Of a DNA stretch of 10,080 bases, positions 202 through 9,835 are shown piece after piece. The stretch is from a virus. Positions within the stretch are counted from its first letter, which is position 1. Each line of letters starts with the position of its first letter. The stretch lies in UHGV virus genome UHGV-1553573; one strand, given 5' to 3'. The notes under the pieces are model-generated. The model saw only the letters and a program-made list of their open reading frames with translations, was not told the DNA's origin and made no database searches. The position numbers and the translations under genes are program-made.

Positions 202-763
202 ACTGGTTGCCTCCTTTGCGAAGCTGTTCCGCCCATTCTTCTAGGGATTTCTCCGCATATTCACCGGACAGGCCATCAATCGGGTGTGGTTCATTAGCCA
301 ACTCTTCTTTCGCTGACAGAATCATGCGTGTAACGTCGAAAACTTCACGTAAAGACTTATTGATAAATCCGTGATTGAAAGCCGCAGCAAGACGGCTGGC
401 GGTATAGTTAATCCCCTCGTTGCGTGCTTCCGCACGAATTTCAGACAGGAAAGCATCGGTGGCTGGCATATTTCCTGTTGCCTTCATTGCCTCCAAAATA
501 ACCAGAACGCCATCTCGCCCAATCTCCTCGCAGATAACCTCGGTGCTGTCGCCAACAACATCGCAAAATGCCTGAACTGCTTTACGAGCCAGCGCATTCT
601 CCGCAGCCAGCGCATTAGCACGCACCAGTTGCACTTCCAGCTGCGTTGCCAAATCGCTGATCAGCTTTGCCACACTGCGCATATCAACGGCACCACATTC
701 TGCTTTCAGTTCCGAAGCCATCTCATGCCCGGCGGCAACTAACCCTTTGATATTACTTTCCAT
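200..763 (-). CDS. Hypothetical phage protein, 187 aa
   Basis: ORF track entry; ATG at 761-763 with GAGG about 7 nt upstream; co-directional with the replication operon. I do not recognise the family. Confidence 0.55.
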   Translation of the reverse strand: MESNIKGLVAAGHEMASELKAECGAVDMRSVAKLISDLATQLEVQLVRANALAAENALARKAVQAFCDVVGDSTEVICEEIGRDGVLVILEAMKATGNMPATDAFLSEIRAEARNEGINYTASRLAAAFNHGFINKSLREVFDVTRMILSAKEELANEPHPIDGLSGEYAEKSLEEWAEQLRKGGNQ

Positions 764-1285: not shown

Positions 1286-2068
1286 TTACTTGATAAATCC
1301 TGCCGCCTTTCCCCGCCTGTATTCCTCCATCAGCCACTGCGCCGGTGTTATTCCCCCAAGGGTGGCGGCGTTAGGCATGCACCCGAAACTTCGCCCTGGT
1401 GGATGGTAAACGTCTCTCCCTGTGTCCGGAGGTGTACTCATGGGCTCTCGCTTTGCCTGTATGCCGATCACCGGATCGGGTATCTGCTGTCCGGAAGCTA
1501 CCTTTTTCGCCCAATCATCGAGCAGCCTGCGCGCGTGTTTCTCAACCTCAATCTCGCTAAGCTGGCGCTGATACATTGCACGGCGGGTATCACATACGAC
1601 CCAGTACATAACCGGATGTCGCCACGGGAATCTTTCGGGACCACCAGGATATAAACTTTTTTCCTTGCTGTACCGGTGAAACTCCGCCATCACATCGTCA
1701 ATGGTGACGCCAAGAACCATCTTGCTGTCTTTGCACCACTTGATGAATTGCCCTGGCGACGGCCAGAACGGAGATTCACTGGCGCGGGCGTGGCGCATAC
1801 CAGCGTTAACCTGTTCCATTGTTGTGATCCCATTCTCCAGAAACGCAAGCATCCATTGTTTTCGAAATTCGTTTAGCTTTCCTTGCTCGCTGATAGCAGC
1901 GATGCTGCCTGGAAATGCAGCCTGTAACTGGACAAACATTTCGTTGAAAATTCTTGCAACCTGCTCCTTCTTTGCCCTTTCATCGTCAGCAGAAGCAACC
2001 GCCGTCGAGTGGTCATGCCCACCACGAAAGCGATCGTACTCATTAAGAAGTTCTGGAGTTGATTTCAT
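1286..2068 (-). CDS. Lambda P-like replication protein (DnaB helicase loader family)
   Basis: Translation contains WMLAFLENGITTMEQVNAGMR and FWPSPGQFIKWC, which I recall as closely matching lambda P; it sits immediately downstream of and overlapping the O-like gene. Start moved from the track's 2080 to the ATG at 2066-2068 (MKSTPELL), which has GAGGTG 5-8 nt upstream. Confidence 0.8.
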   Translation of the reverse strand: MKSTPELLNEYDRFRGGHDHSTAVASADDERAKKEQVARIFNEMFVQLQAAFPGSIAAISEQGKLNEFRKQWMLAFLENGITTMEQVNAGMRHARASESPFWPSPGQFIKWCKDSKMVLGVTIDDVMAEFHRYSKEKSLYPGGPERFPWRHPVMYWVVCDTRRAMYQRQLSEIEVEKHARRLLDDWAKKVASGQQIPDPVIGIQAKREPMSTPPDTGRDVYHPPGRSFGCMPNAATLGGITPAQWLMEEYRRGKAAGFIK

Positions 2069-2894
2069 CCCACACCTCATCTATCCAGTCAGTGTTATGC
2101 CAGTCAAGGCTCTTTCTGACTTCACCTGATTTCTGTCTACAGAACTGGATGCGCCTTGCCAGCTTCTGCTCCCACTGTGCCTGATGGTATGCCTTACCCT
2201 CAGCCATCCAGTAAATTCTGAACTCTGCAAGTTCCTGTGCCGTTGGCAGACTGTCCAGGTAGATTCCCTGCAATGAGCTTTTCCGAAGAAAGTCATCTGA
2301 TGGCTGCCATTGTTCATGCATGACAAATTTGCCTAATTGCCCTGGCCCACCAGGAGGAACAAAGTTATTCATCACGGCGTTGTTTGCGCCGGGGTCATGA
2401 GGCACAGAATCCCCGGTTTTTGTCCTGCTCTCCCTCTCTTGGTTAAATGACTGGTTATATGACTGGTTCTGGATCCCGTTTTTGGGATCATTCAACATCC
2501 CGTTTTTGGGATCATTCAACATCCCGTTTTTGGGTATATTCCCGTTTTCGGGAACATTACCGTTTTCGGGAACATTACCGTTTTCGGGTTCATTACACCC
2601 TTCTAGGTCGCCTTTAATGTTCCCGTTTTTGGTTATATTAAGAGAGAAAACCCGCACTCTTTTTGTCGCTCCCTTTCTCTCTCCGGTATCTGAAATAAGC
2701 CCCATTTTCATGAGCGATATAAGTCCGGCCTGCACGGTTTTTTTATTCAGGCAAGTGTCTTTAACGAGGCGTTCTATGCTGGGGTAGCAGAGGTTATATT
2801 CATCGGCTCTGTCAGCCATCGAGAGCAGTATGAGCTTTAATGATGAGCTACCTGGATCTGTCTCCCAGGCCCAATCTGTTGCATGTCTGCTCAT
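2043..2894 (-). CDS. Lambda O-like replication initiator (iteron-binding origin protein)
   Basis: 283-aa ORF with GGAG 9 nt upstream of the ATG at 2892-2894; its central part is encoded by the iteron array and gives the peptide repeats NGNVPENGNVPENGNIPKNGMLNDPKNGMLNDPKNG; followed by the P-like gene with a 26-nt overlap, as in lambdoid O-P pairs. Confidence 0.8.
   Translation of the reverse strand: MSRHATDWAWETDPGSSSLKLILLSMADRADEYNLCYPSIERLVKDTCLNKKTVQAGLISLMKMGLISDTGERKGATKRVRVFSLNITKNGNIKGDLEGCNEPENGNVPENGNVPENGNIPKNGMLNDPKNGMLNDPKNGIQNQSYNQSFNQERESRTKTGDSVPHDPGANNAVMNNFVPPGGPGQLGKFVMHEQWQPSDDFLRKSSLQGIYLDSLPTAQELAEFRIYWMAEGKAYHQAQWEQKLARRIQFCRQKSGEVRKSLDWHNTDWIDEVWDEINSRTS
2472..2640. 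repeat. Replication origin iterons inside the O-like gene
   Basis: About seven direct repeats with core CCCGTTTT(T)GGG: three at 24-bp spacing (2472, 2497, 2521) with palindromic arms GATCCC/GGGATC, three at 18-19-bp spacing (2541, 2560, 2578) with arms TTCCCG/CGGGAA, and one more at 2621-2640. On the O-coding strand they read TCCCAAAAACGGGA, resembling the lambda ori iteron as I recall it. A flanking ATGACTGGTT direct repeat lies at 2447-2456 and 2459-2468. Confidence 0.75.
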
Positions 2895-2909: not shown

Positions 2910-3110
2910 TCAGCTTGAGTGTTGTGGGGAGGAATTAATCATGATCTGCTTAATCTCTGCCCTGATGCGACGGTTTGATTCCATGGTGCACTCAACACAG
3001 TGTCCGTTGTAAACCCAGCGTTCACTGTCATGTCCATGCTTACATGGTTTTCCGGTGTAGTAGCGTTTAAGTCCGCGCTTTGCGGCATCAATACGTGTAA
3101 TGATTTCCAT
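2910..3110 (-). CDS. Small putative zinc-binding protein (about 66 aa)
   Basis: Translation MEIITRIDAAKRGLKRYYTGKPCKHGHDSERWVYNGHCVEC has a C-x-H-G-H ... H-C-x-x-C cluster; AGGG about 7 nt upstream of the ATG at 3108-3110; stop 12 nt before the O-like start. The track's longer start (3173) would leave no room for a promoter after the upstream terminator, so the internal start is preferred. Confidence 0.45.
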   Translation of the reverse strand: MEIITRIDAAKRGLKRYYTGKPCKHGHDSERWVYNGHCVECTMESNRRIRAEIKQIMINSSPQHSS

Positions 3111-3206
3111 GGTAAGCCCTGTTATTAGTATTGGGGTTACGGTCATTTTGTGCTGACACAAAAAAAAGATCAACCAGATTTGGTTTTTTATTACCTTTGA
3201 GGTACG

Positions 3207-3238
3207 AATAGATATGAAAAGACCGCCGGGTGGCGGTC
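3207..3238 (-). terminator. Intrinsic terminator downstream of the Cro-like gene
   Basis: 7-bp GC-rich stem GACCGCC / GGCGGTC (3221-3238, loop 3228-3231) followed on the minus strand by TTTTCATATCTATT; lies 23 nt past the stop at 3261-3263. Confidence 0.55.
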
Positions 3239-3260
3239 TACAGAGGGTTGTAGCTGGATA

Positions 3261-3491
3261 TCATGAGTAGAAGAAGTATGCCAGTTCTGCTTTTGAGCGC
3301 AGCCATTGTCTTGTTTTACAGGCTTTAAAAAGCCCATTCATCAATACCTTACCTGGCATTTTGCGCTTACCTGTTAAGTGAGTCTGGATATAGTGACTCG
3401 TCGTTCCGGCTTCCTGTGCGAAGGCTTCACGCTCATCCGGAGTAAGTGCAAGCCAGTGCTTTTTGAAATCGAAATGTCCGTTATCGCTCAT
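3261..3491 (-). CDS. Cro/YdaS-like small HTH DNA-binding protein (76 aa)
   Basis: ORF track entry; the segment FAQEAGTTSHYIQTHLTGKRKMP resembles the Cro/YdaS-type helix-turn-helix; transcribed divergently from the repressor-like gene and upstream of the O/P genes, i.e. the cro position. Confidence 0.6.
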   Translation of the reverse strand: MSDNGHFDFKKHWLALTPDEREAFAQEAGTTSHYIQTHLTGKRKMPGKVLMNGLFKACKTRQWLRSKAELAYFFYS

Positions 3492-3645
3492 AGCTATTGC
3501 CTGATATTTATTTCAGATAATAAATATTCACCCATAAGGTAACAAAAATCAAGGATAGTTACCTATGGGGTGCATTTACCTGTTGGGTAATATTGCTTTA
3601 AATTGAATCATCTACTGATTCATATATGAGGCGATTTTCCAGAAA
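3492..3645. promoter_or_regulatory. Divergent promoter/operator region between the Cro-like and repressor-like genes (OR-like)
   Basis: Three clustered palindromes of the TTACC-N5-GGTAA family at 3528-3542 (TCACC CATAA GGTAA), 3559-3573 (TTACC TATGG GGTGC, degenerate) and 3576-3590 (TTACC TGTTG GGTAA, perfect); a perfect 9-bp AT-rich inverted repeat at 3504-3512/3519-3527; AT-rich hexamers usable as -10/-35 on both strands. Confidence 0.6.
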
Positions 3646-4538: not shown

Positions 4539-4838
4539 ATGAACGTTAATCAGCAGAAAAATCTTCAAAAAATCATGCTGGCATTCGACAAGGACTACCG
4601 CCTGTCAGAACAGCTATATGACCGACAAGTTGAACTGATCGAGAGCATCCGGCTTCATCAACTGGCCTCAACTTTTGACGCTGTAACAGGCAAAGGAGTT
4701 CGCCAGGAAGTGCTGGAGGCAGCTAAAGACAGCCCTGAGTTCGAAGAACTAATGGATGCCTGCCGGCGCGAGGCAATGGCAATTATCGCCCGCTGGGATC
4801 TGGCTGATCAGCTTGATGGGCAGAGGGACGCGGCATGA
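4539..4838 (+). CDS. Hypothetical protein, 99 aa, translationally coupled to the exonuclease gene
   Basis: ATG at 4539 preceded by GGGAGGG at a 6-nt spacing (preferred over the track start at 4524); its stop overlaps the exonuclease start as ATGA (4835-4838). Confidence 0.55.
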   Translation: MNVNQQKNLQKIMLAFDKDYRLSEQLYDRQVELIESIRLHQLASTFDAVTGKGVRQEVLEAAKDSPEFEELMDACRREAMAIIARWDLADQLDGQRDAA

Positions 4839-5656
4839 AACCGGGAATTTATTTCGACATCAGCAACGAAGACTACCACGCCGGTGACGGCGTGAGTAAG
4901 TCGCAACTGGACATGGTTGCCAAGAATCCAGCGCTTCTTAAATGGGTTCAGGCAGCACCAGAAGACGAAGAGAAAAAGTCTGCACTGGATATGGGAACCG
5001 CATTGCACTGTCTGCTTCTGGAGCCTGGAGAGTTCGACAAACGCTTCATTGTTTCACCGAAATTCGATCGTCGGACGAAACAAGGTAAAGCTGACGAAGA
5101 GGCATTTCTTCGTGATGTAGCGGATATGGGGATTACGGTACTTGATGCCGAGCAGTGGCGGAAACTGGAGCTGATGCGTGATAGCGCAATGGCTCACCCG
5201 GCGGCACGCTGGATGCTGGAAGCACCTGGTTACTGCGAAGCATCAATGTACTGGAACGATGAAGAGACGGGTGAGTTGTGCCGAATTCGTCCAGACAAAT
5301 GGCTGAACGAGCACAACGTGATCGTCGACGTGAAAAAGGTTGCAGATATGGACCGTTTTGCACGTCACATCGAGGAATTCCGCTACCACGTGCAGGACGC
5401 AATGTACCGCGAAGGCGCAATGAGGGTTACTGGTCAGCCGCATGGTTTTTTCTTTCTTGCCGTGAGCGAAAGCATTGATTGTGGTCGGTATCCGGTACGC
5501 GTGTTCGGGCTGGATGCGCCGGATGTCGATGCCGGGCACGCTCTGTTCCGCCGGGATCTGAATACCTATCACGAATGCCGCATCAGCGATGAATGGGGCG
5601 GCGTGGAAATTATTAAACGCCCTGAGTGGGCACGCAAACAGGATATGTACGTATGA
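4835..5656 (+). CDS. RecE-like / RecB-family PD-(D/E)XK exonuclease (phage recombination exonuclease), 273 aa
   Basis: Motifs IRPDKW, then VIVDVKK, then QDAMY (Q-x-x-x-Y), matching the D...D-x-K plus QxxxY signature of RecB-family nucleases; immediately upstream of and overlapping the annealing-protein gene. Confidence 0.75.
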   Translation: MKPGIYFDISNEDYHAGDGVSKSQLDMVAKNPALLKWVQAAPEDEEKKSALDMGTALHCLLLEPGEFDKRFIVSPKFDRRTKQGKADEEAFLRDVADMGITVLDAEQWRKLELMRDSAMAHPAARWMLEAPGYCEASMYWNDEETGELCRIRPDKWLNEHNVIVDVKKVADMDRFARHIEEFRYHVQDAMYREGAMRVTGQPHGFFFLAVSESIDCGRYPVRVFGLDAPDVDAGHALFRRDLNTYHECRISDEWGGVEIIKRPEWARKQDMYV

Positions 5657-6570
5657 GCAACGAAATTGCAATCACCAATGATGTGTTGGCTATTCGGGGA
5701 ATCGATGAAGTTACATGGAGCGCTCTGAAAAACAGTATTTACCCTGGGGCAAAAGATGAATCGGTAATGATGGCAGTCGATTACTGCCGGGCGCGTCAAC
5801 TCGATCCTCTTCTTAAGCCGGTACACCTGGTACCAATGAGTGTTAAAGACTCGAAGAGTGGAAAGAATGAATGGCGCGACGTGGTCATGCCTGGCATTGG
5901 ACTTTATCGCATTCAGGCCTACCGTTCCGGCGATTACGCAGGCGCTAATGAACCTGAGTTCGGTCCAGATGTAACACAAACGCTTTCAGGCGTGGAGGTT
6001 ACCTTCCCTCAGTGGTGTAAGTACACCGTCAGCAAGCGAATGGCAAGCGGGGAAATCGTAGAGTTTAGCGCCAAAGAATACTGGATTGAGAACTATGCAA
6101 CTGGGGGGCGTGACACATCGGCACCAAATGCCATGTGGAAAAAGCGCCCTTATGCGCAGTTGGCAAAATGCGCAGAGGCACAGGCATTACGTAAAGCATG
6201 GCCGGAGATTGGTCAACAAGCCACAGCTGAGGAAATGGAAGGTAAATATATCGACTCACCTGACATTATTGAACGTGACGTAACTCCAAGAAGTCAGGCA
6301 AAGCACGGCACAGCATCCAGCATGAACAGTCTGATCAACGCTAAACCAGTGAAAAAGCATGATGAGCAAACGCGTAAAGCGGATAGCCGTGATCCAGAAG
6401 AAATGCTGATGGCCTTTACCAGCGCAGCGATGAATTACAGCACTGTCTCCGAACTGGATAAGGCTTACAAATACATTGCACAAAAACTTTCAGATGATGA
6501 CGAACTGCTGGCAAAAGCCACCGACGTTTACAGCGTTCGTCGGGAAGAATTAAACGAAACATCTATGTAA
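5653..6570 (+). CDS. Bet/RecT-family single-strand annealing protein, about 305 aa
   Basis: The segments AVDYCRARQLDPLLKPVHLVPM and PNAMWKKRPYAQLAKCAEAQALRKAWPE parallel conserved regions of lambda Bet as I recall them. Start placed at the ATG at 5653, which overlaps the exonuclease stop (ATGA) and has AGGA upstream; the track's GTG at 5626 is less likely. Confidence 0.75.
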   Translation: MSNEIAITNDVLAIRGIDEVTWSALKNSIYPGAKDESVMMAVDYCRARQLDPLLKPVHLVPMSVKDSKSGKNEWRDVVMPGIGLYRIQAYRSGDYAGANEPEFGPDVTQTLSGVEVTFPQWCKYTVSKRMASGEIVEFSAKEYWIENYATGGRDTSAPNAMWKKRPYAQLAKCAEAQALRKAWPEIGQQATAEEMEGKYIDSPDIIERDVTPRSQAKHGTASSMNSLINAKPVKKHDEQTRKADSRDPEEMLMAFTSAAMNYSTVSELDKAYKYIAQKLSDDDELLAKATDVYSVRREELNETSM

Positions 6571-6578
6571 CCACCACC

Positions 6579-6597
6579 GCGGCGCCACGTGCGCCGC
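6579..6597 (+). other. GC-rich hairpin with no U-tract, between the annealing-protein gene and the AlpA-like gene
   Basis: GCGGCGC (6579-6585), loop CACGT, GCGCCGC (6591-6597): a perfect 7-bp stem 9 nt after the stop; no T-run follows. Confidence 0.4.
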
Positions 6598-6619
6598 ACT
6601 GCAACCAAGAGAGGTATTC

Positions 6620-6868
6620 ATGAAAGGTGCATTAGGTAAGAAAGAACTCCTGGCGGTGGTGCCACTGTCATGGAGCACTATCGACCGTATGGAGCGCGCA
6701 GGGGAATTTCCTAAACGCTGGTATATCACCGATAAACGCTGCGCATGGAACCGTGATGAAGTTGAGCGTTGGCTTGATGAACGTCAGGCAGCAAGCCCGG
6801 CAGAGTTCCAGGGTAAAAAGCCTCCTGTTCAGCAACGTGTATATCGTCCCGTGAGCAACGCTGCATGA
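6620..6868 (+). CDS. AlpA-family phage transcriptional regulator / excisionase-like DNA-binding protein, 82 aa
   Basis: LLAVVPLSWSTIDRMERAGEFPKRWYITDKRCAWNRDEVERWLDE fits the AlpA/Xis-type pattern (S-x-S-T-I, FPK, W...EV..WL); AGAGAGG 5 nt upstream of the ATG. Confidence 0.7.
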   Translation: MKGALGKKELLAVVPLSWSTIDRMERAGEFPKRWYITDKRCAWNRDEVERWLDERQAASPAEFQGKKPPVQQRVYRPVSNAA

Positions 6869-6977
6869 GTGCGCTGCTAAGGCACTGGAGCAAATGGTCA
6901 GGATGGTACTTATTCCTGGCCTCTGTTTCAGCATGGCTTTATCTGCTGGCATTAATTTTCAGAGAGGGTTGGATTAA

Positions 6978-7277
6978 GTGAGAAAGTTAAGCCGACTTGA
7001 AAAATATCACATGAATAAGGTTTCAATGCGCAGTCCGTCAAAGATTGTCGCCGTTACTCCTGCGGCGATAGAGATCGAAAAACGCGCGATTGAAAGAGAG
7101 AAAAAAGGGCAATTCCGCATTGCCGCTCACCTTTGGCTTCAGTGTATGGATGTTGCTTCTGGTGATGTTGAACGTGCAAGGATCGCGGTTCGCAGGGACC
7201 AATGTATCACAAAAGGTAACGGCCTTCGCCGTGGCGACTATAGCGGCATAGGATGTTGTGGGGTGGTTTATGACTAA
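6978..7277 (+). CDS. Hypothetical protein, start uncertain (GTG 6978, ATG 7011 or ATG 7026)
   Basis: ORF track entry; GAGAGGG about 9 nt upstream of the GTG; its last codons overlap the methyltransferase ATG by 8 nt. Confidence 0.45.
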   Translation: MRKLSRLEKYHMNKVSMRSPSKIVAVTPAAIEIEKRAIEREKKGQFRIAAHLWLQCMDVASGDVERARIAVRRDQCITKGNGLRRGDYSGIGCCGVVYD

Positions 7278-7920
7278 GAAATACACACTAATCTATGCAG
7301 ATCCACCCTGGGTATACCGGGACAAAGCCGCAGATGGTAATCGCGGTGCCGGTTTTAAATATCCGGTTATGAGTGTGCTGGATATCTGCCGCCTTCCTGT
7401 GTGGGATTTGGCCGATGAAAACTGTCTGTTGGCCATGTGGTGGGTGCCAACACAACCACTCGAAGCACTAAAAGTTGTTGAAGCCTGGGGATTCCGTCTG
7501 ATGACGATGAAGGGCTTCACGTGGATAAAATGTGGTAGTCGACAACCAGATAAACTGGTTATGGGTATGGGACACATGACTCGCGCCAATAGTGAAGATT
7601 GCCTGTTTGCGGTAAAGGGAAAACTACCTACGCGCATTAATGCAGGGATCGTTCAGTCATTTACCGCACCGCGGCTTGAGCATTCAAGAAAGCCAGATAT
7701 CGTTCGTGAAAAACTTGTGCAATTATTAGGCGATGTTTCTCGCATTGAACTGTTCGCCCGCCAGACGTCTCATGGCTTCGATGTTTGGGGTAATCAGTGC
7801 GAAGACCCGGCAGTGCAACTACACCCTGGATACGCGTTGGATATCGGCGGATTAACAAATGCATTCAGCAATGCTCCGCTGTCACCAACAGACAACCAGG
7901 GGCGGGAGCGTGCAGCATGA
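7270..7920 (+). CDS. MT-A70-family N6-adenine DNA methyltransferase with no restriction partner in the window
   Basis: N-terminal [10 protein letters not shown] (DPPW catalytic motif) and later EHSRKP, both typical of this family. Start placed at the ATG at 7270 ([14 protein letters not shown]) rather than the track's GTG at 7258; stop overlaps the phosphatase start. Confidence 0.75.
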
Positions 7921-8576
7921 ACCTATATCAACGCATCAATGGCGCTGACTGGTGCAATATCTTCGTCGTCGGCGATCTGCATGGGTGCTACACGCTGCTG
8001 ATGAACGAACTCGACAAAGTTTCATTCGACCCGGCGCGCGATTTGCTTATTTCCGTTGGTGACCTTGTTGACCGCGGCGCTGAAAACGTCGAATGCCTGG
8101 ATTTGATTACTATGCCGTGGTTCCGAGCTGTTCGTGGCAACCATGAGCAGATGATGCTGGATGCACTGGTCAACGGCGGAAGTTTCGGACATTGGATGTC
8201 AAACGGCGGTGGATGGTGGCACCAACTTGATTCTGAGCAGGATGTGCAACTCAAATACCTTCTGCCAAAGGTTACCAACCTCCCGATGATTATCGAACTG
8301 GTTACCGGCAATAAGAAGGTCGTCATCTGCCACGCAGACTACCCGCACAACGAATACGCATTCGATAAGCCAGTACCGGAAGAAATGGTGATATGGAATC
8401 GTGAGCGGGTTAGCGACGCGCAGGACGGTATTGTCTCGGAGATAACCGGTGCCGATTTGTTCATCTTCGGTCATACGCCAGCACATCACCCACTGGTGTA
8501 TGCAAACCAAATGTACATCGACACCGGCGCAGTGTTCTGCGGAAATCTGACGCTTACCAAAGTCCAGGAAGGATAG
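7917..8576 (+). CDS. Lambda-type Ser/Thr protein phosphatase (PPP-family metallophosphatase), 219 aa
   Basis: GDLHG, GDLVDRG and GNHE motifs plus the extended run [17 protein letters not shown]...[14 protein letters not shown]...VICHADYP...FIFGHTP...[16 protein letters not shown], which matches lambda phosphatase as I recall it. Start at the ATG at 7917, overlapping the methyltransferase stop (ATGA). Confidence 0.85.
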
Positions 8577-8578
8577 AA

Positions 8579-9835
8579 TTATTTATTACTGTCTTCCATC
8601 CACTTCTCAAACTTCGACGGGGAGAACGGAATCAGATCCGTATGCTCCCCGTTAATCCAGGAATCAATCATATCGGCCCACTGCTGCAACATGTAGGCGC
8701 GCTGTCTGGCGTATTCCGCTTTGTTATATACGGCGCGCACACCTTTCTGCTCGTGTGCCAGAGCCTTTTCAATCCAGTCTGAAGGATAACCAGCCTCATG
8801 CAACAATGTACTGGCTGTACGGCGCATATCATGTACAGTAAAATCCTGAATATGCTCACCATCTTCATTTATTATTTTCACCGTTCTGTCGATCAGAGAG
8901 TTCAGCGCGGCATTAGATAATGGCTTCCGGAAATTGTAACGACCAGGAACCAGATATTCACTTCCACCAGCGCACATCTGCAACCCGACTAATATATCCT
9001 GTGCCTGTTTAGGCAGGTAAATAACGTGCGCCCGACTTCCCTTCATGCGGTCTGAAGGAATTGTCCATGTCCATTTTTTAAAATCTATTTCATCCCACGT
9101 TGCATTGGTGAATTCTCCCTTACGAACCATGGTGATAAGCACCAGCTTTAAAGCCATTTTCATAGTGCCCATAGCACCAATGGCATCCAGCGTGCGGAAG
9201 AACAGGCCAATTTCTTCTGGTGTCAGTGTTCGCTCTCGTGGTTTAAATATGGCGATAGACGAAGGTTTAATGTCAGCCGCAGGATTAAACAAACCATGAC
9301 CACGGTCATTGGCGTGACGGTATACGCTGCTGATGATCTCCCTGGCCTGTACTGCTGTTGCCCGACCACCGCGTTCGACAATCCGGTCACACAAATCACG
9401 AACCATTGATGTGGTAATTTCAGCCATCATTTTGTTGCCAAGAACCGGAAGTATGTCACGGTCGATCACCGCCTGCTTCATTGCGCGGGTACTGTCAGCC
9501 AGGATGACGTGTTTCATATAACTGTCGGTATGTACCGCAAACGTCTCGGCACCACGAATCTTTTTAATACCGTCACGTTTAGCCGCAGCCGGTGACTGGC
9601 CTGCTTTAAGCAGCTTCTTTGCAGCAATCAGTTCTTCTCGCGCTTCTGCCAGGCTGATACCGTCACGCCCATACTGCCCGATTACCAGTGTTTCGCGGCG
9701 ACCGTTGATACGGTAGTCATAGCGAAACGAGACCGTGCCTGACGTAAGCACAGCTACATACAGCCCGTCACGATCGGAGACCTTGTACAGTTTGTCCTGC
9801 GGCTTGAGGTTTTTTAATTTTGTATCGGTAAGCAC
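8579..9835 (-). CDS. int: P4-type tyrosine integrase, 418 aa
   Basis: N-terminus LTDTKLKNLKPQDKLYKVSDRDGLYVAV is typical of P4-like integrase arm domains; C-terminal HDMRRT ... ALAHEQKGVRAVYNKAEY fits the H-x-x-R ... Y catalytic region. GTG start at 9833-9835 with GGGTGA upstream; convergent with the phosphatase gene, 2 bp apart. Confidence 0.85.
   Translation of the reverse strand: MLTDTKLKNLKPQDKLYKVSDRDGLYVAVLTSGTVSFRYDYRINGRRETLVIGQYGRDGISLAEAREELIAAKKLLKAGQSPAAAKRDGIKKIRGAETFAVHTDSYMKHVILADSTRAMKQAVIDRDILPVLGNKMMAEITTSMVRDLCDRIVERGGRATAVQAREIISSVYRHANDRGHGLFNPAADIKPSSIAIFKPRERTLTPEEIGLFFRTLDAIGAMGTMKMALKLVLITMVRKGEFTNATWDEIDFKKWTWTIPSDRMKGSRAHVIYLPKQAQDILVGLQMCAGGSEYLVPGRYNFRKPLSNAALNSLIDRTVKIINEDGEHIQDFTVHDMRRTASTLLHEAGYPSDWIEKALAHEQKGVRAVYNKAEYARQRAYMLQQWADMIDSWINGEHTDLIPFSPSKFEKWMEDSNK

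What the first reader, a model, noticed from the sequence alone, without database searches (positions are those of the whole stretch)
2400..2640. Origin of replication embedded in the O-like gene, with two iteron subfamilies
Seven iteron-like repeats with core CCCGTTTT(T)GGG fall into a 24-bp-period subfamily (arms GATCCC/GGGATC) and an 18-19-bp-period subfamily (arms TTCCCG/CGGGAA). Just downstream on the coding strand is an ATGACTGGTT direct repeat and a moderately AT-rich stretch, consistent with an unwinding element. Two iteron subfamilies with different spacing are not the simple four-iteron lambda layout and may mark a hybrid or recently recombined origin.
Basis: partly seen in the sequence, partly recalled or inferred. 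Interest (0 to 1): 0.5.

Follow-up and report, generated by a model that had tools for sequence, protein, structure and literature searches.

The report
Iteron replication origin inside a prophage initiator gene
The repeats are real and are most likely the replication origin of a phiV10-like E. coli prophage, written into the flexible linker of its own initiator gene as in phage lambda; the two repeat spacings are an old, conserved design, not a sign of recent recombination.

Summary
Observation confirmed. Seven copies of TCCC[A/G]AAAACGGGA lie at 2474-2634 on the minus (coding) strand, against 0.15 expected by chance. Three sit at 24-bp spacing, three at exactly 18 bp, and one is isolated. 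An AACCAGTCAT x2 repeat follows.

The host gene (2043-2894, minus) encodes a winged-helix HTH_36 domain, a disordered linker and a DnaT-like ssDNA-binding domain. A lambda-P-family gene follows. It is not a Pfam lambda-O member.

The repeats code for the linker. In relatives the same DNA motif occurs in other reading frames, so the DNA is what is conserved, not the peptide. All 80 close relatives keep both spacing classes, with varying copy number. About 30 distant relatives from alpha-, beta-, gamma- and delta-proteobacteria show one architecture: short-spaced iterons (17-18 bp), then long-spaced iterons (22-25 bp), then 2-4 copies of GAAYCNNYCA at 12-14 bp. The dyad arms differ between lineages. 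A sister prophage with a different N-terminal domain lacks the whole cassette.

Best reading: a lambda-style iteron origin of a distinct initiator family. The "hybrid or recently recombined" idea is not supported. The conserved 12-14-mer block is a candidate unwinding element and the most interesting part. Nothing has been tested experimentally.

The parts
2043..2894 (-). Replication initiator gene (283 aa): HTH_36 winged helix, disordered linker, DnaT-like C-terminal domain
   Evidence: Pfam gives HTH_36 at aa 18-67 (E = 2.4e-10) and DnaT at aa 190-256 (E = 1.1e-14). AF2 gives pLDDT about 88 for residues 1-85, about 30 for 89-184 and about 87 for 185-256. The C-terminal domain matches DnaT structures 4ou6/6aeq. 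RefSeq annotates relatives as 'DnaT-like ssDNA-binding domain-containing protein', and phiV10 as 'replication initiation protein'.
2640..2894 (-). Coding region of the N-terminal winged-helix domain (aa 1-85), the presumed iteron-binding module
   Evidence: This domain, not the C-terminal one, travels with the iterons in relatives.
2620..2635 (-). Isolated upstream iteron (coding strand AACCAAAAACGGGAAC), 45 bp before the main array, inside the least stable 30-mer of the gene
   Evidence: It is present at the same position in close relatives.
2539..2592 (-). Three iterons at 18-bp spacing (cores 2576-2589, 2558-2571, 2540-2553); TTCCCGAAAACGGGAA type; they encode PENGNV repeats
2473..2538 (-). 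Three iterons at 24-bp spacing (cores 2522-2535, 2498-2511, 2474-2487); GATCCCAAAAACGGGATG+TTGAAT type; they encode PKNGMLND repeats and carry GATC sites at 2472, 2486 and 2510
2435..2469 (-). 12-bp repeats (G/T)AACCAGTCAT x2 plus a partial third (AACCAAGAG); a candidate unwinding-element repeat conserved across the family as GAAYCNNYCA
   Evidence: A tandem pair lies directly after the last iteron in most of 31 loci, at period 12, 13 or 14.
2400..2434 (-). Purine-rich stretch with a degenerate iteron-like site (coding strand ACAAAAACCGGGGAT, 2409-2423); a possible far boundary of the opening region
   Evidence: In phiV10-type alleles this site reads GGACAAAAAACGGGGA and matches the iteron pattern. 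Purine fraction is 0.60. Weak evidence.
2127..2342 (-). Coding region of the DnaT-like ssDNA-binding domain (aa 185-256)
   Evidence: 49-52% identity, TM about 0.9 to DnaT 84-153 bound to ssDNA.
1286..2080 (-). Lambda-P-family helicase-loader gene. The mechanical ORF overlaps the initiator's 3' end by 38 nt; RefSeq annotation of the near-identical locus L003 gives a 26-nt overlap, implying a P start near 2068
   Evidence: Pfam Phage_lambda_P, E = 4.2e-53. The near-identical locus L003 is annotated 'replication protein P'.

Best explanation
This is the replication origin of a phiV10/epsilon15-like (Uetakevirus) prophage of E. coli. It is laid out like ori-lambda but belongs to a different initiator family.

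Inferred mechanism:
1. Dimers of the initiator's N-terminal winged-helix (HTH_36) domain bind the seven dyad-symmetric, A-tract-centred iterons (TCCC-R-AAAAC-GGGA). These iterons are written into the part of the gene that codes for the protein's own disordered linker.
2. The conserved order, a short-spaced (18 bp) block followed by a long-spaced (24 bp) block, sets the geometry of an O-some-like nucleoprotein complex.
3. That complex destabilises the adjacent 12-mer repeat and purine-rich segment (about 2400-2470).
4. The tethered DnaT-like C-terminal domains bind the exposed single strand, as DnaT filaments do.
5. Together with the lambda-P-like protein encoded immediately downstream, they bring in host DnaB.

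Shown here: the sequence anatomy, the domain architecture, DNA-level conservation and co-inheritance with the N-terminal domain. Inferred: binding, opening and helicase loading.
For: 1. Non-random array: 7 hits against 0.15 expected.
2. Each unit is an inverted repeat around an A-tract, like lambda iterons.
3. The array maps to aa 87-142, inside the pLDDT-30 linker between two confident domains. The lambda iterons sit at nt 349-433 of gene O.
4. Conservation is at the DNA level. The core motif occurs in frame 0 (74 times), frame 1 (13) and frame 2 (6) across 24 loci. In Bcep176, Vibrio salinus, Desulfovibrio and others the units are 17, 22, 23 or 25 bp, which are not multiples of 3. In Edno5 the core is CCCAAAATTGGG, which changes the peptide (N to I) but improves the palindrome.
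5. Every full-length homologue of the N-terminal domain has an array at the same place, whatever its C-terminal domain.
6. The iteron arms change with lineage: GTTCCA/TGGAAC in Acinetobacter, GTCGGA/TCCGAC in Sphingobium, GTGCCA/TGGCAC in Zoogloeaceae, GGGGCAG/CTGCCCC in Min27. Dyad symmetry, the A/T centre and the overall architecture stay.
7. Natural swap: the APEC O1 sister prophage has the same Cro-like protein, a P gene whose start matches at about 93% DNA identity (the rest was not compared) and a 57%-identical DnaT-like C-terminus. Its N-terminal domain is unrelated, and it has neither the iterons nor the 12-mers.
8. A P-family loader gene lies immediately downstream.
9. The DnaT C-terminal domain is known to form filaments on ssDNA (PMC13377028).
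10. Literature: domesticated chromosomal homologues (DopC, with HTH_36 and DnaT_C, next to the P-like DopE) are reported to lack iterons (PMC5509034). That fits iterons being needed only by the mobile element.
Against: There is no experimental evidence for this phage or any family member. None was found in the literature searches, and no origin feature is listed in the phiV10 or phiv142-3 stretches retrieved.

The putative unwinding region is only moderately AT-rich (GC 0.37), far from the lambda tract.

Within E. coli all units are in frame and vary in number, which is also what slippage in a repeat-coding linker would give.

Iteron arrays can act as copy-control or autoregulatory sites without being the start site.

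The DopC observation comes from the paper only. I could not retrieve those loci to check it.
Confidence: 0.8

Rival explanations
1. The array is initiator-binding DNA, but it acts mainly in control: autoregulation of the early operon, titration or handcuffing of the initiator, or exclusion of related phages. Initiation starts elsewhere.
For: Iterons play such roles in plasmids; this rests on my general knowledge and was not checked against a paper here. In Stx phages the two extra iterons bind O weakly yet are still required (PMC7466680). The conserved short-spaced block could be such an accessory class. AT-rich intergenic DNA exists nearby at 3140-3220 and 3500-3620.
Against: A conserved 12-14-mer block always abuts the last iteron. 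The P-loader gene is adjacent. The position matches ori-lambda exactly. The nearby AT-rich intergenic stretches lie in the repressor/cro control region.
Confidence: 0.12
2. The repeats are only a slippage-prone, low-complexity peptide linker (PENGNV / PKNGMLND) with no function as DNA.
For: Within E. coli all units are in frame. Copy number varies widely, from about 3 to about 12 units. The region is predicted to be disordered.
Against: The same DNA motif appears in all three frames and in units that are not multiples of 3. Every unit keeps dyad symmetry, which a peptide constraint does not explain. Amino-acid-changing variants preserve the palindrome (Edno5). The rare codons CCC and GGG are used throughout. 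The arms co-vary with the lineage of the N-terminal domain. The cassette is absent from the APEC O1 allele.
Confidence: 0.04
3. The palindromic units act in the mRNA, as hairpins that affect translation or stability of the initiator or P message.
For: The RNA of 2400-2650 (minus strand) folds with z = -4.2 against shuffles.
Against: Any array of DNA palindromes gives this result. There is no Rfam match. The lineage-specific arms, A-tract centres and fixed 17-18 / 22-25 bp spacing point to protein-DNA geometry rather than a conserved RNA fold. The 12-14-mers are not palindromic.
Confidence: 0.03

Closest known systems
ori-lambda within gene O of phage lambda (O/P system)
   Same: Dyad-symmetric, A-tract-centred iterons lie inside the initiator gene, in the segment between the N-terminal DNA-binding domain and the C-terminal domain. 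An easily melted region follows on the coding-strand 3' side. A P-family helicase-loader gene comes next. The sequence style is similar: lambda TCCCTCAAAACGAGGGA against TCCCGAAAACGGGA here.
   Different: The initiator is HTH_36, not Phage_rep_O. The C-terminal domain is DnaT-like rather than the lambda O C-terminal domain. The core is 14 bp, against 17-18 bp in lambda. There are seven iterons in two ordered spacing classes, against four at 20/24/23 bp. A conserved 12-14-mer repeat stands in place of a plain AT-rich tract of roughly 25-30% GC (estimated by eye). All units are in frame.
Origins of Stx phages 933W/P27 (six iterons; PMC7466680)
   Same: These are lambdoid origins with more than four iterons. 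The extra promoter-proximal iterons behave differently from the four next to the AT-rich region, a precedent for two functional classes of iteron in one origin.
   Different: Those phages use true lambda-type O proteins and lambda-type iterons. The extra copies are near-duplicates, not a separate spacing class.
DopC/DopE of Cellvibrionales and some Oceanospirillales (PMC5509034)
   Same: The gene pair is the same: an HTH_36 plus DnaT_C protein followed by a P-family protein. The window pair looks like the phage-borne form of that ancestry.
   Different: DopC is chromosomal and vertically inherited, and is reported to have no iteron-like sequences. The window gene is in a prophage and carries a full array. 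I did not verify the DopC loci.
Iteron plasmid origins (for example RK2 oriV/TrfA, RepE, pi) with 13-mer unwinding-element repeats
   Same: Tandem iterons lie next to an unwinding element made of short repeats. Rep proteins bind one strand of that element sequence-specifically (PMC4081077, listed). This is a possible model for the GAAYCNNYCA repeats.
   Different: No Rep_3/WH1-WH2 initiator is present. Here the origin lies inside the initiator's coding sequence. Helicase loading is via a P-family protein.
E. coli DnaT (replication restart primosome)
   Same: The C-terminal domain is 49-52% identical to the DnaT ssDNA-binding domain, with TM about 0.9.
   Different: The DnaT N-terminal domain is absent. 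The phage protein instead has a sequence-specific winged helix and acts, by inference, at an origin rather than at stalled forks.

Membership tests
Lambda-type (lambdoid) phage origin embedded in the initiator gene | Array of four or more direct repeats, each with internal dyad symmetry, inside the initiator ORF | tested here: met
   Seven units at 2474-2634, against 0.15 expected.
Lambda-type (lambdoid) phage origin embedded in the initiator gene | The array lies between the N-terminal DNA-binding domain and the C-terminal domain | tested here: met
   The iterons code for aa 87-142, inside the disordered segment 89-184. The lambda iterons are at nt 349-433 of gene O.
Lambda-type (lambdoid) phage origin embedded in the initiator gene | Strongly AT-rich unwinding tract adjacent to the last iteron | tested here: inconclusive
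   2434-2463 is the second least stable 30-mer of the gene but has GC 0.37. The lambda tract is far more AT-rich.
Lambda-type (lambdoid) phage origin embedded in the initiator gene | Helicase-loader (P-family) gene immediately downstream | tested here: met
   PF06992, E = 4.2e-53.
Lambda-type (lambdoid) phage origin embedded in the initiator gene | Initiator-dependent replication starting at the array | not testable with these tools
   This needs cloning, origin mapping and binding assays.
Lambda O protein family (Pfam PF04492 Phage_rep_O) | Match to PF04492 above threshold | tested here: not met
   No PF04492 hit at E <= 0.01, while lambda O itself scores 5.7e-36. hhalign against lambda O gives E = 0.011 and probability 3.8%.
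HTH_36 + DnaT_C phage initiators ('primosomal protein I' / DopC-like) | N-terminal HTH_36 domain | tested here: met
   PF13730, E = 2.4e-10. A winged-helix fold is predicted with high confidence.
HTH_36 + DnaT_C phage initiators ('primosomal protein I' / DopC-like) | C-terminal DnaT ssDNA-binding domain | tested here: met
   PF17948, E = 1.1e-14. PDB 4ou6, E = 3e-13. Foldseek TM 0.90.
HTH_36 + DnaT_C phage initiators ('primosomal protein I' / DopC-like) | Adjacent P-family gene | tested here: met
   The same pairing appears in phiV10, phiv142-3 and the annotated E. coli prophages examined.
Origin cassette of the HTH_36 initiator family (defined here) | A short-spaced (17-18 bp) iteron block, then a long-spaced (22-25 bp) block, then tandem GAAYCNNYCA at 12-14 bp | tested here: met
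   Window spacings are 18, 18, 18, 24, 24, followed by 12-mers. The same order is seen in 14 loci by TRF. The 12-14-mers occur in most of 31 loci.
Iteron plasmid Rep family (Rep_3, WH1-WH2) | Rep_3-type initiator | tested here: not met
   No such Pfam hit. There are only weak fold hits to RepA_N-type Rep proteins (4pql and 5kbj, E about 0.1).

The most novel reading that the evidence does not exclude
The HTH_36 N-terminal domain travels through phages of alpha-, beta-, gamma- and delta-proteobacteria as one cassette with a three-part origin: short-spaced iterons, long-spaced iterons, and GAAYCNNYCA repeats at 12-14 bp. Those 12-14-mers would be a new sequence-specific origin-opening element. 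They would be read as single-stranded DNA by the initiator or by its interchangeable C-terminal module (for example a DnaT-like filament), in the way DnaA reads DnaA-trios or TrfA reads the RK2 13-mers. They would not be merely an AT-rich stretch.
Probability: 0.25. Interest if true: 0.65.

Novelty: new variant of a known kind. Interest (0 to 1): 0.42.

Why it matters
About one in ten complete E. coli genomes carries this initiator gene (536 of 5426), yet I found no described origin for phiV10-type phages.

If confirmed, it would extend the lambda principle of an origin written into the initiator's linker to a second, very widespread initiator family. It would give a ready set of natural specificity variants, since the arms differ by lineage. 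It would also offer a defined system for asking how a DnaT-like ssDNA-filament domain and a P-type loader cooperate at an origin. That bears on the proposed DnaT/DnaA parallel (PMC13377028) and on how DopC/DopE were domesticated (PMC5509034).

In practice, the copy-number variation of the units is a strain-typing marker and a source of assembly and annotation errors.

Tried and rejected
- The search for related loci with a seven-genus N-terminal alignment failed because no stretch was conserved enough. A three-sequence alignment worked.
- I tried to reach DopC proteins by searching with the Marinobacterium homologue. E. coli variants filled the list and no DopC locus was retrieved. The Neptunomonas hit was another prophage. 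The 'DopC lacks iterons' point therefore rests on the paper alone.
- The profile comparison with lambda O was too weak to claim or deny homology. PMC5509034 assigns an HTH_36 domain to lambda O by HHpred.
- There were no Rfam hits in the window.
- The strong RNA-folding z-score and the two 'terminator-like' hairpins on the plus strand at 2483-2526 are by-products of adjacent palindromic iterons. I do not treat them as independent features.
- Literature searches for phiV10 or epsilon15 iterons or origin found nothing relevant.
- 'Hybrid or recently recombined origin' was considered and rejected.
- A DnaA-box or IHF-site reading of the 12-mers was considered by eye only and dropped. No scan was run.
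- The idea that the 12-14-mers go with the DnaT-like domain was rejected. They occur with every type of C-terminal domain and are absent from the APEC O1 allele, which keeps the DnaT-like domain.
Full report
**What is in the sequence**

The window is the early region of a phiV10/epsilon15-like (Uetakevirus) prophage of E. coli. Its best phage matches are phiv142-3, vB_EcoP_PAS61 and phiV10, at 94-96% identity. The same gene occurs in 536 of 5426 complete E. coli genomes.

The finding lies inside ORF 2043-2894 on the minus strand (283 aa). On the coding strand the region reads as follows:
- one isolated unit, AACCAAAAACGGGAAC;
- then, 45 bp on, three units at exactly 18-bp spacing (AACCCGAAAACGGTAA, TTCCCGAAAACGGTAA, TTCCCGAAAACGGGAA);
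- then three units at 24-bp spacing (TACCCAAAAACGGGATGTTGAATG, ATCCCAAAAACGGGATGTTGAATG, ATCCCAAAAACGGGATCC);
- then CAGAACCAGTCATATAACCAGTCATTTAACCAAGAG, a 12-bp repeat;
- then a purine-rich stretch.

A search for TCCCRAAAACGGGA with up to 2 mismatches finds exactly these seven sites and nothing else in 10 kb, against 0.15 expected. The short period is 18 bp, not 18-19. Only one short-period unit has perfect arms. The two 'subfamilies' share one 14-bp core that differs at a single base.

**The gene**

Pfam finds an N-terminal HTH_36 domain and a C-terminal DnaT DNA-binding domain. It does not find Phage_rep_O, the lambda O family, although lambda O itself scores 5.7e-36 on that model.

The next gene downstream (1286-2080, minus) is a lambda-P-family helicase loader, and a DUF1064 gene follows it. 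Upstream lie a small ORF, a Cro-like gene and a divergent repressor with two HTH motifs, as in phiV10.

AlphaFold2 with a 14-sequence alignment gives:
- a confident winged helix, residues 1-85 (pLDDT about 88);
- a disordered segment, 89-184 (pLDDT about 30);
- a confident C-terminal domain, 185-256.

The C-terminal domain superposes on the DnaT 84-153/ssDNA structure with TM 0.90 at about 50% identity. The iterons (aa 87-142) and the 12-mers (aa 142-150) are thus written into the linker. This is the arrangement of ori-lambda, whose four iterons lie at nt 349-433 of gene O.

**Peptide repeat or DNA element?**

In E. coli the units are in frame and encode PENGNV and PKNGMLND, so a slippage-prone linker was a serious rival. 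Four observations go against it.

1. The reading frame varies. A codon-by-codon view of nine relatives and a frame count over 24 loci show the same DNA core in all three frames: 74 times in frame 0, 13 in frame 1 and 6 in frame 2. Examples are ACC CAA AAA CGG GAT (TQKRD) in Edwardsiella phage Edno5 and in PPompW, and GAC CCA AAA ACG GAA (DPKTE) in Vibrio phage H20.
2. Several lineages have unit lengths of 17, 22, 23 or 25 bp, which are not multiples of three.
3. Edno5 has CCCAAAATTGGG. This changes the amino acid but makes the palindrome better.
4. Every unit in every lineage keeps 5-7-bp inverted arms around an A/T-rich centre.

Together these point to constraint at the DNA level.

**Close relatives**

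Ten annotated relatives and 80 IMG/VR contigs all carry both spacing classes in the same order.
- The modal layout has spacings 45, 18, 18, 24, 24 (six iterons; 44 of 80).
- The window has one extra 18-bp unit, which is a rare variant.
- Among the contigs, variants have one to four 18-bp intervals and one to five 24-bp intervals.
- Among the proteins, P0013 has nine PKNGMLND units, and P0070 has lost the whole short-spaced block and keeps three iterons.

Copy number therefore drifts by unit gain and loss, but no relative lacks the array.

**Distant relatives**

A tblastn search with the N-terminal 95 aa and scans of species-representative genomes gave about 30 loci. They come from phages and prophages of Edwardsiella, Vibrio, Pseudoalteromonas, Marinobacterium, Neptunomonas, Providencia, Proteus, Phaseolibacter, Wohlfahrtiimonas, Acinetobacter, Moraxella, Burkholderia, Zoogloeaceae, Methylotenera, Sphingobium and Desulfovibrio, among others. 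Their N-terminal domains are 28-87% identical to the window's. All have HTH_36 at the N-terminus, but their C-terminal domains differ:
- DnaT-like in four: the window, Superficieibacter, Marinobacterium and PPompW;
- lambda-O-C-terminal-like in Edno5, judged by eye from its sequence;
- no Pfam match in the rest.

Every full-length gene has an iteron array starting right after the winged helix.

In 14 loci TRF resolves two period classes, always in the same order: 17-18 bp first, then 22-25 bp. These are the window, Superficieibacter, V. salinus, Phaseolibacter, Providencia, Ignatzschineria, Proteus, Bcep176, two Acinetobacter, Desulfovibrionaceae, Desulfovibrio, Sphingobium and Zoogloeaceae. 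In others (Edno5, Vibrio H20, Marinobacterium) degenerate sites at 17-18-bp spacing can be read upstream of the 24-bp block. The two-spacing layout is therefore an ancestral design of this origin family, not a mark of a hybrid or recent recombination event.

The iteron core is CCC(A/G)AAAACGG in most gamma-proteobacterial members and different in more distant ones:
- GTTCCAACAATGGAAC in Acinetobacter prophages;
- GTCGGAAAAATCCGAC in Sphingobium;
- AGTGCCAAAAGTGGCACT in Zoogloeaceae;
- GGGGCAGGAGCTGCCCC in Min27.

This is the pattern expected if the binding site co-evolves with its DNA-binding domain.

**A second conserved element**

Directly after the last iteron, most of the 31 loci scanned with a loose pattern carry two to four tandem copies of GAAYCNNYCA. 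The common forms are GAACCAGTCA, GAACCTATCA and GAATCTATCA. The period is 12, 13 or 14 bp. At period 13 the copies fall in different frames; in Vibrio, for example, they read NQS and then EPV.

Several loci show only one match to the pattern: Edno5, AB1, Providencia, Ignatzschineria and Proteus. Three fit it poorly but have related short repeats at the same place: GAACAGTAG x4 in Bcep176, AAACCTATTAAT x3.6 in Mcat8 and GGAACCCAAA x2 in PPompW.

On its own it is not significant in the window. Its conservation is what gives it weight.

The region is the second least stable 30-mer of the gene (GC 0.37). The least stable one (GC 0.27) lies on the other flank, around the isolated iteron. I read the 12-14-mers as part of the unwinding element, with moderate confidence only.

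**A natural swap**

In E. coli APEC O1 and HB37 the same prophage type has:
- an identical Cro-like protein;
- a P gene whose start matches the window at about 93% DNA identity (the rest of P was not compared);
- a DnaT-like C-terminus that is 57% identical, including the same ...NTDWI..VWDEINSRTS tail.

Its N-terminal domain, however, is unrelated and is not HTH_36. That gene has neither the iterons nor the 12-mers. The iterons and the 12-mers are therefore inherited with the HTH_36 module, not with the DnaT-like module or the rest of the phage. Lambdoid phages behave the same way, with origin specificity residing in the N-terminus of O; that comparison rests on established knowledge and was not checked against a paper here.

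**Literature**

Brezellec et al. (PMC5509034) describe DopC (HTH_36 plus DnaT_C) and DopE (P-like) as lambdoid O/P genes domesticated in Cellvibrionales and some Oceanospirillales. They state that dopC has no iteron-like sequences. The window pair is the phage-borne counterpart with the array intact. I could not retrieve dopC loci to check this.

Kozlowska et al. (PMC7466680) show that Stx phages have six iterons, and that the two promoter-proximal ones bind O weakly yet are required. More than four iterons, and two functional classes of iteron, therefore have precedent.

The DnaT C-terminal domain forms a filament on lagging-strand ssDNA (PMC13377028). This suggests what the tethered C-terminal domains might do on an opened origin.

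I found no paper describing an origin for phiV10-type phages. No origin feature is listed in the phiV10 or phiv142-3 stretches retrieved.

**Mechanism proposed**

All steps below are inferred; none was tested.
1. Dimers of the winged-helix domain occupy the dyad-symmetric iterons.
2. The A-tracts and the ordered 18-bp and 24-bp spacing shape a wrapped complex like the lambda O-some.
3. Stress is released at the 12-mer and purine-rich segment (about 2400-2470).
4. The DnaT-like domains bind the exposed strand.
5. The P-like protein delivers host DnaB.

Transcription through the gene from the early promoter may help, as in lambda (established knowledge, not tested here).

**Verdict**

The array is a real, non-random and conserved DNA element. 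It is very probably the iteron part of the phage origin (confidence about 0.8). It is a lambda-style design in a different initiator family, so I rate it a new variant of a known kind. The 'hybrid origin' reading is not supported. The conserved three-part cassette, and in particular the GAAYCNNYCA repeats, is the part most worth an experiment.

Noticed in passing
window 2043-2131 (3' end of the initiator gene and start of P); L003-L010, L128, L129: The initiator's C-terminal tail comes in two alleles...LDWHNTDWIDEVWDEINSRTS, with a 26-nt overlap onto P, and ...NNVPHWNSPEAWEDFL, with a 4-nt overlap. Each goes with a different P allele. The first tail-plus-P allele is also joined to an unrelated N-terminal domain in APEC O1. 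This suggests a mosaic junction and a tail-P interaction. A similar ...NTDW(I) ending occurs in Edno5, which resembles lambda O by eye, and ...DTDW ends many marine homologues.
   Followed up: partly
L011 (Edwardsiella phage Edno5) 1501-2343: The Edno5 initiator looks chimeric. It has the HTH_36 domain, the iterons and one GAATCAGTCA, followed by what looks by eye like a lambda-O-type C-terminal half. The join lies just before the SENSNESSD segment, which appears to correspond to the lambda SENSGESSD / EcoRI-palindrome region to the right of ori-lambda. It looks like a natural exchange point immediately after the origin cassette. No formal alignment was made.
   Followed up: partly
window 2472, 2486, 2510: Three GATC (Dam) sites lie within 40 bp, one per arm of the 24-bp iterons, against 3.6 per kb in the window as a whole. 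Edno5's 24-bp units also carry GATC. Dam methylation or SeqA could modulate initiator binding.
   Followed up: no
window 2488-2497 and 2512-2521; 24-bp units of L011, L012, L100, L101, L104, L105, L110, L013: The spacer of the long-period units contains a conserved TTGAAT (encoding L-N) in Escherichia, Edwardsiella, Vibrio, Superficieibacter, Marinobacterium, Phaseolibacter, Providencia, Pseudoalteromonas and Acinetobacter phages. It may be an extended contact for the initiator's wing, or a separate site.
   Followed up: no
window 2409-2423: A degenerate iteron-like site (coding strand ACAAAAACCGGGGAT) lies 50-65 bp beyond the last iteron, on the far side of the 12-mers. In phiV10-type alleles it reads GGACAAAAAACGGGGA and matches the iteron pattern. 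It could bracket the opening region.
   Followed up: partly
L128 / L129 (E. coli APEC O1, HB37) 1598-2428: In the same prophage type there is an alternative initiator with an uncharacterised N-terminal domain (no Pfam hit) fused to the DnaT-like domain. It has no tandem iterons, only CATCGAAAA x2 at 41 bp found by the repeat finder and GTAACG motifs seen by eye in the sequence. Its origin is unknown.
   Followed up: partly
window 3220-3239 (minus strand): A strong terminator-like hairpin (8 pairs, 6 G-C, T-run) lies between the Cro-like gene (3261-3491) and the small ORF 2910-3173, upstream of the replication genes. phiV10 annotates a terminator at the same place. This implies that antitermination or read-through controls expression of the initiator.
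   Followed up: no
window 587-628: An 18-bp tandem repeat (AGCCAGCGCATTAGCCGC x2.3) lies inside ORF 200-763, which has no Pfam match.
   Followed up: no
window 4835-9835: The rest of the window is a typical phiV10-like early-left arm: a PDDEXK exonuclease (DUF3799), RecT, AlpA, a PerC-like activator, an MT-A70 methyltransferase, a metallophosphatase and a tyrosine integrase.
   Followed up: partly
P0160 (Marinobacterium stanieri, 297 aa): A second M. stanieri protein is 61% identical to the L101 initiator over 69% of the query. It has DnaT but no HTH_36 in its precomputed Pfam domains, so it may be another N-terminal swap.
   Followed up: no
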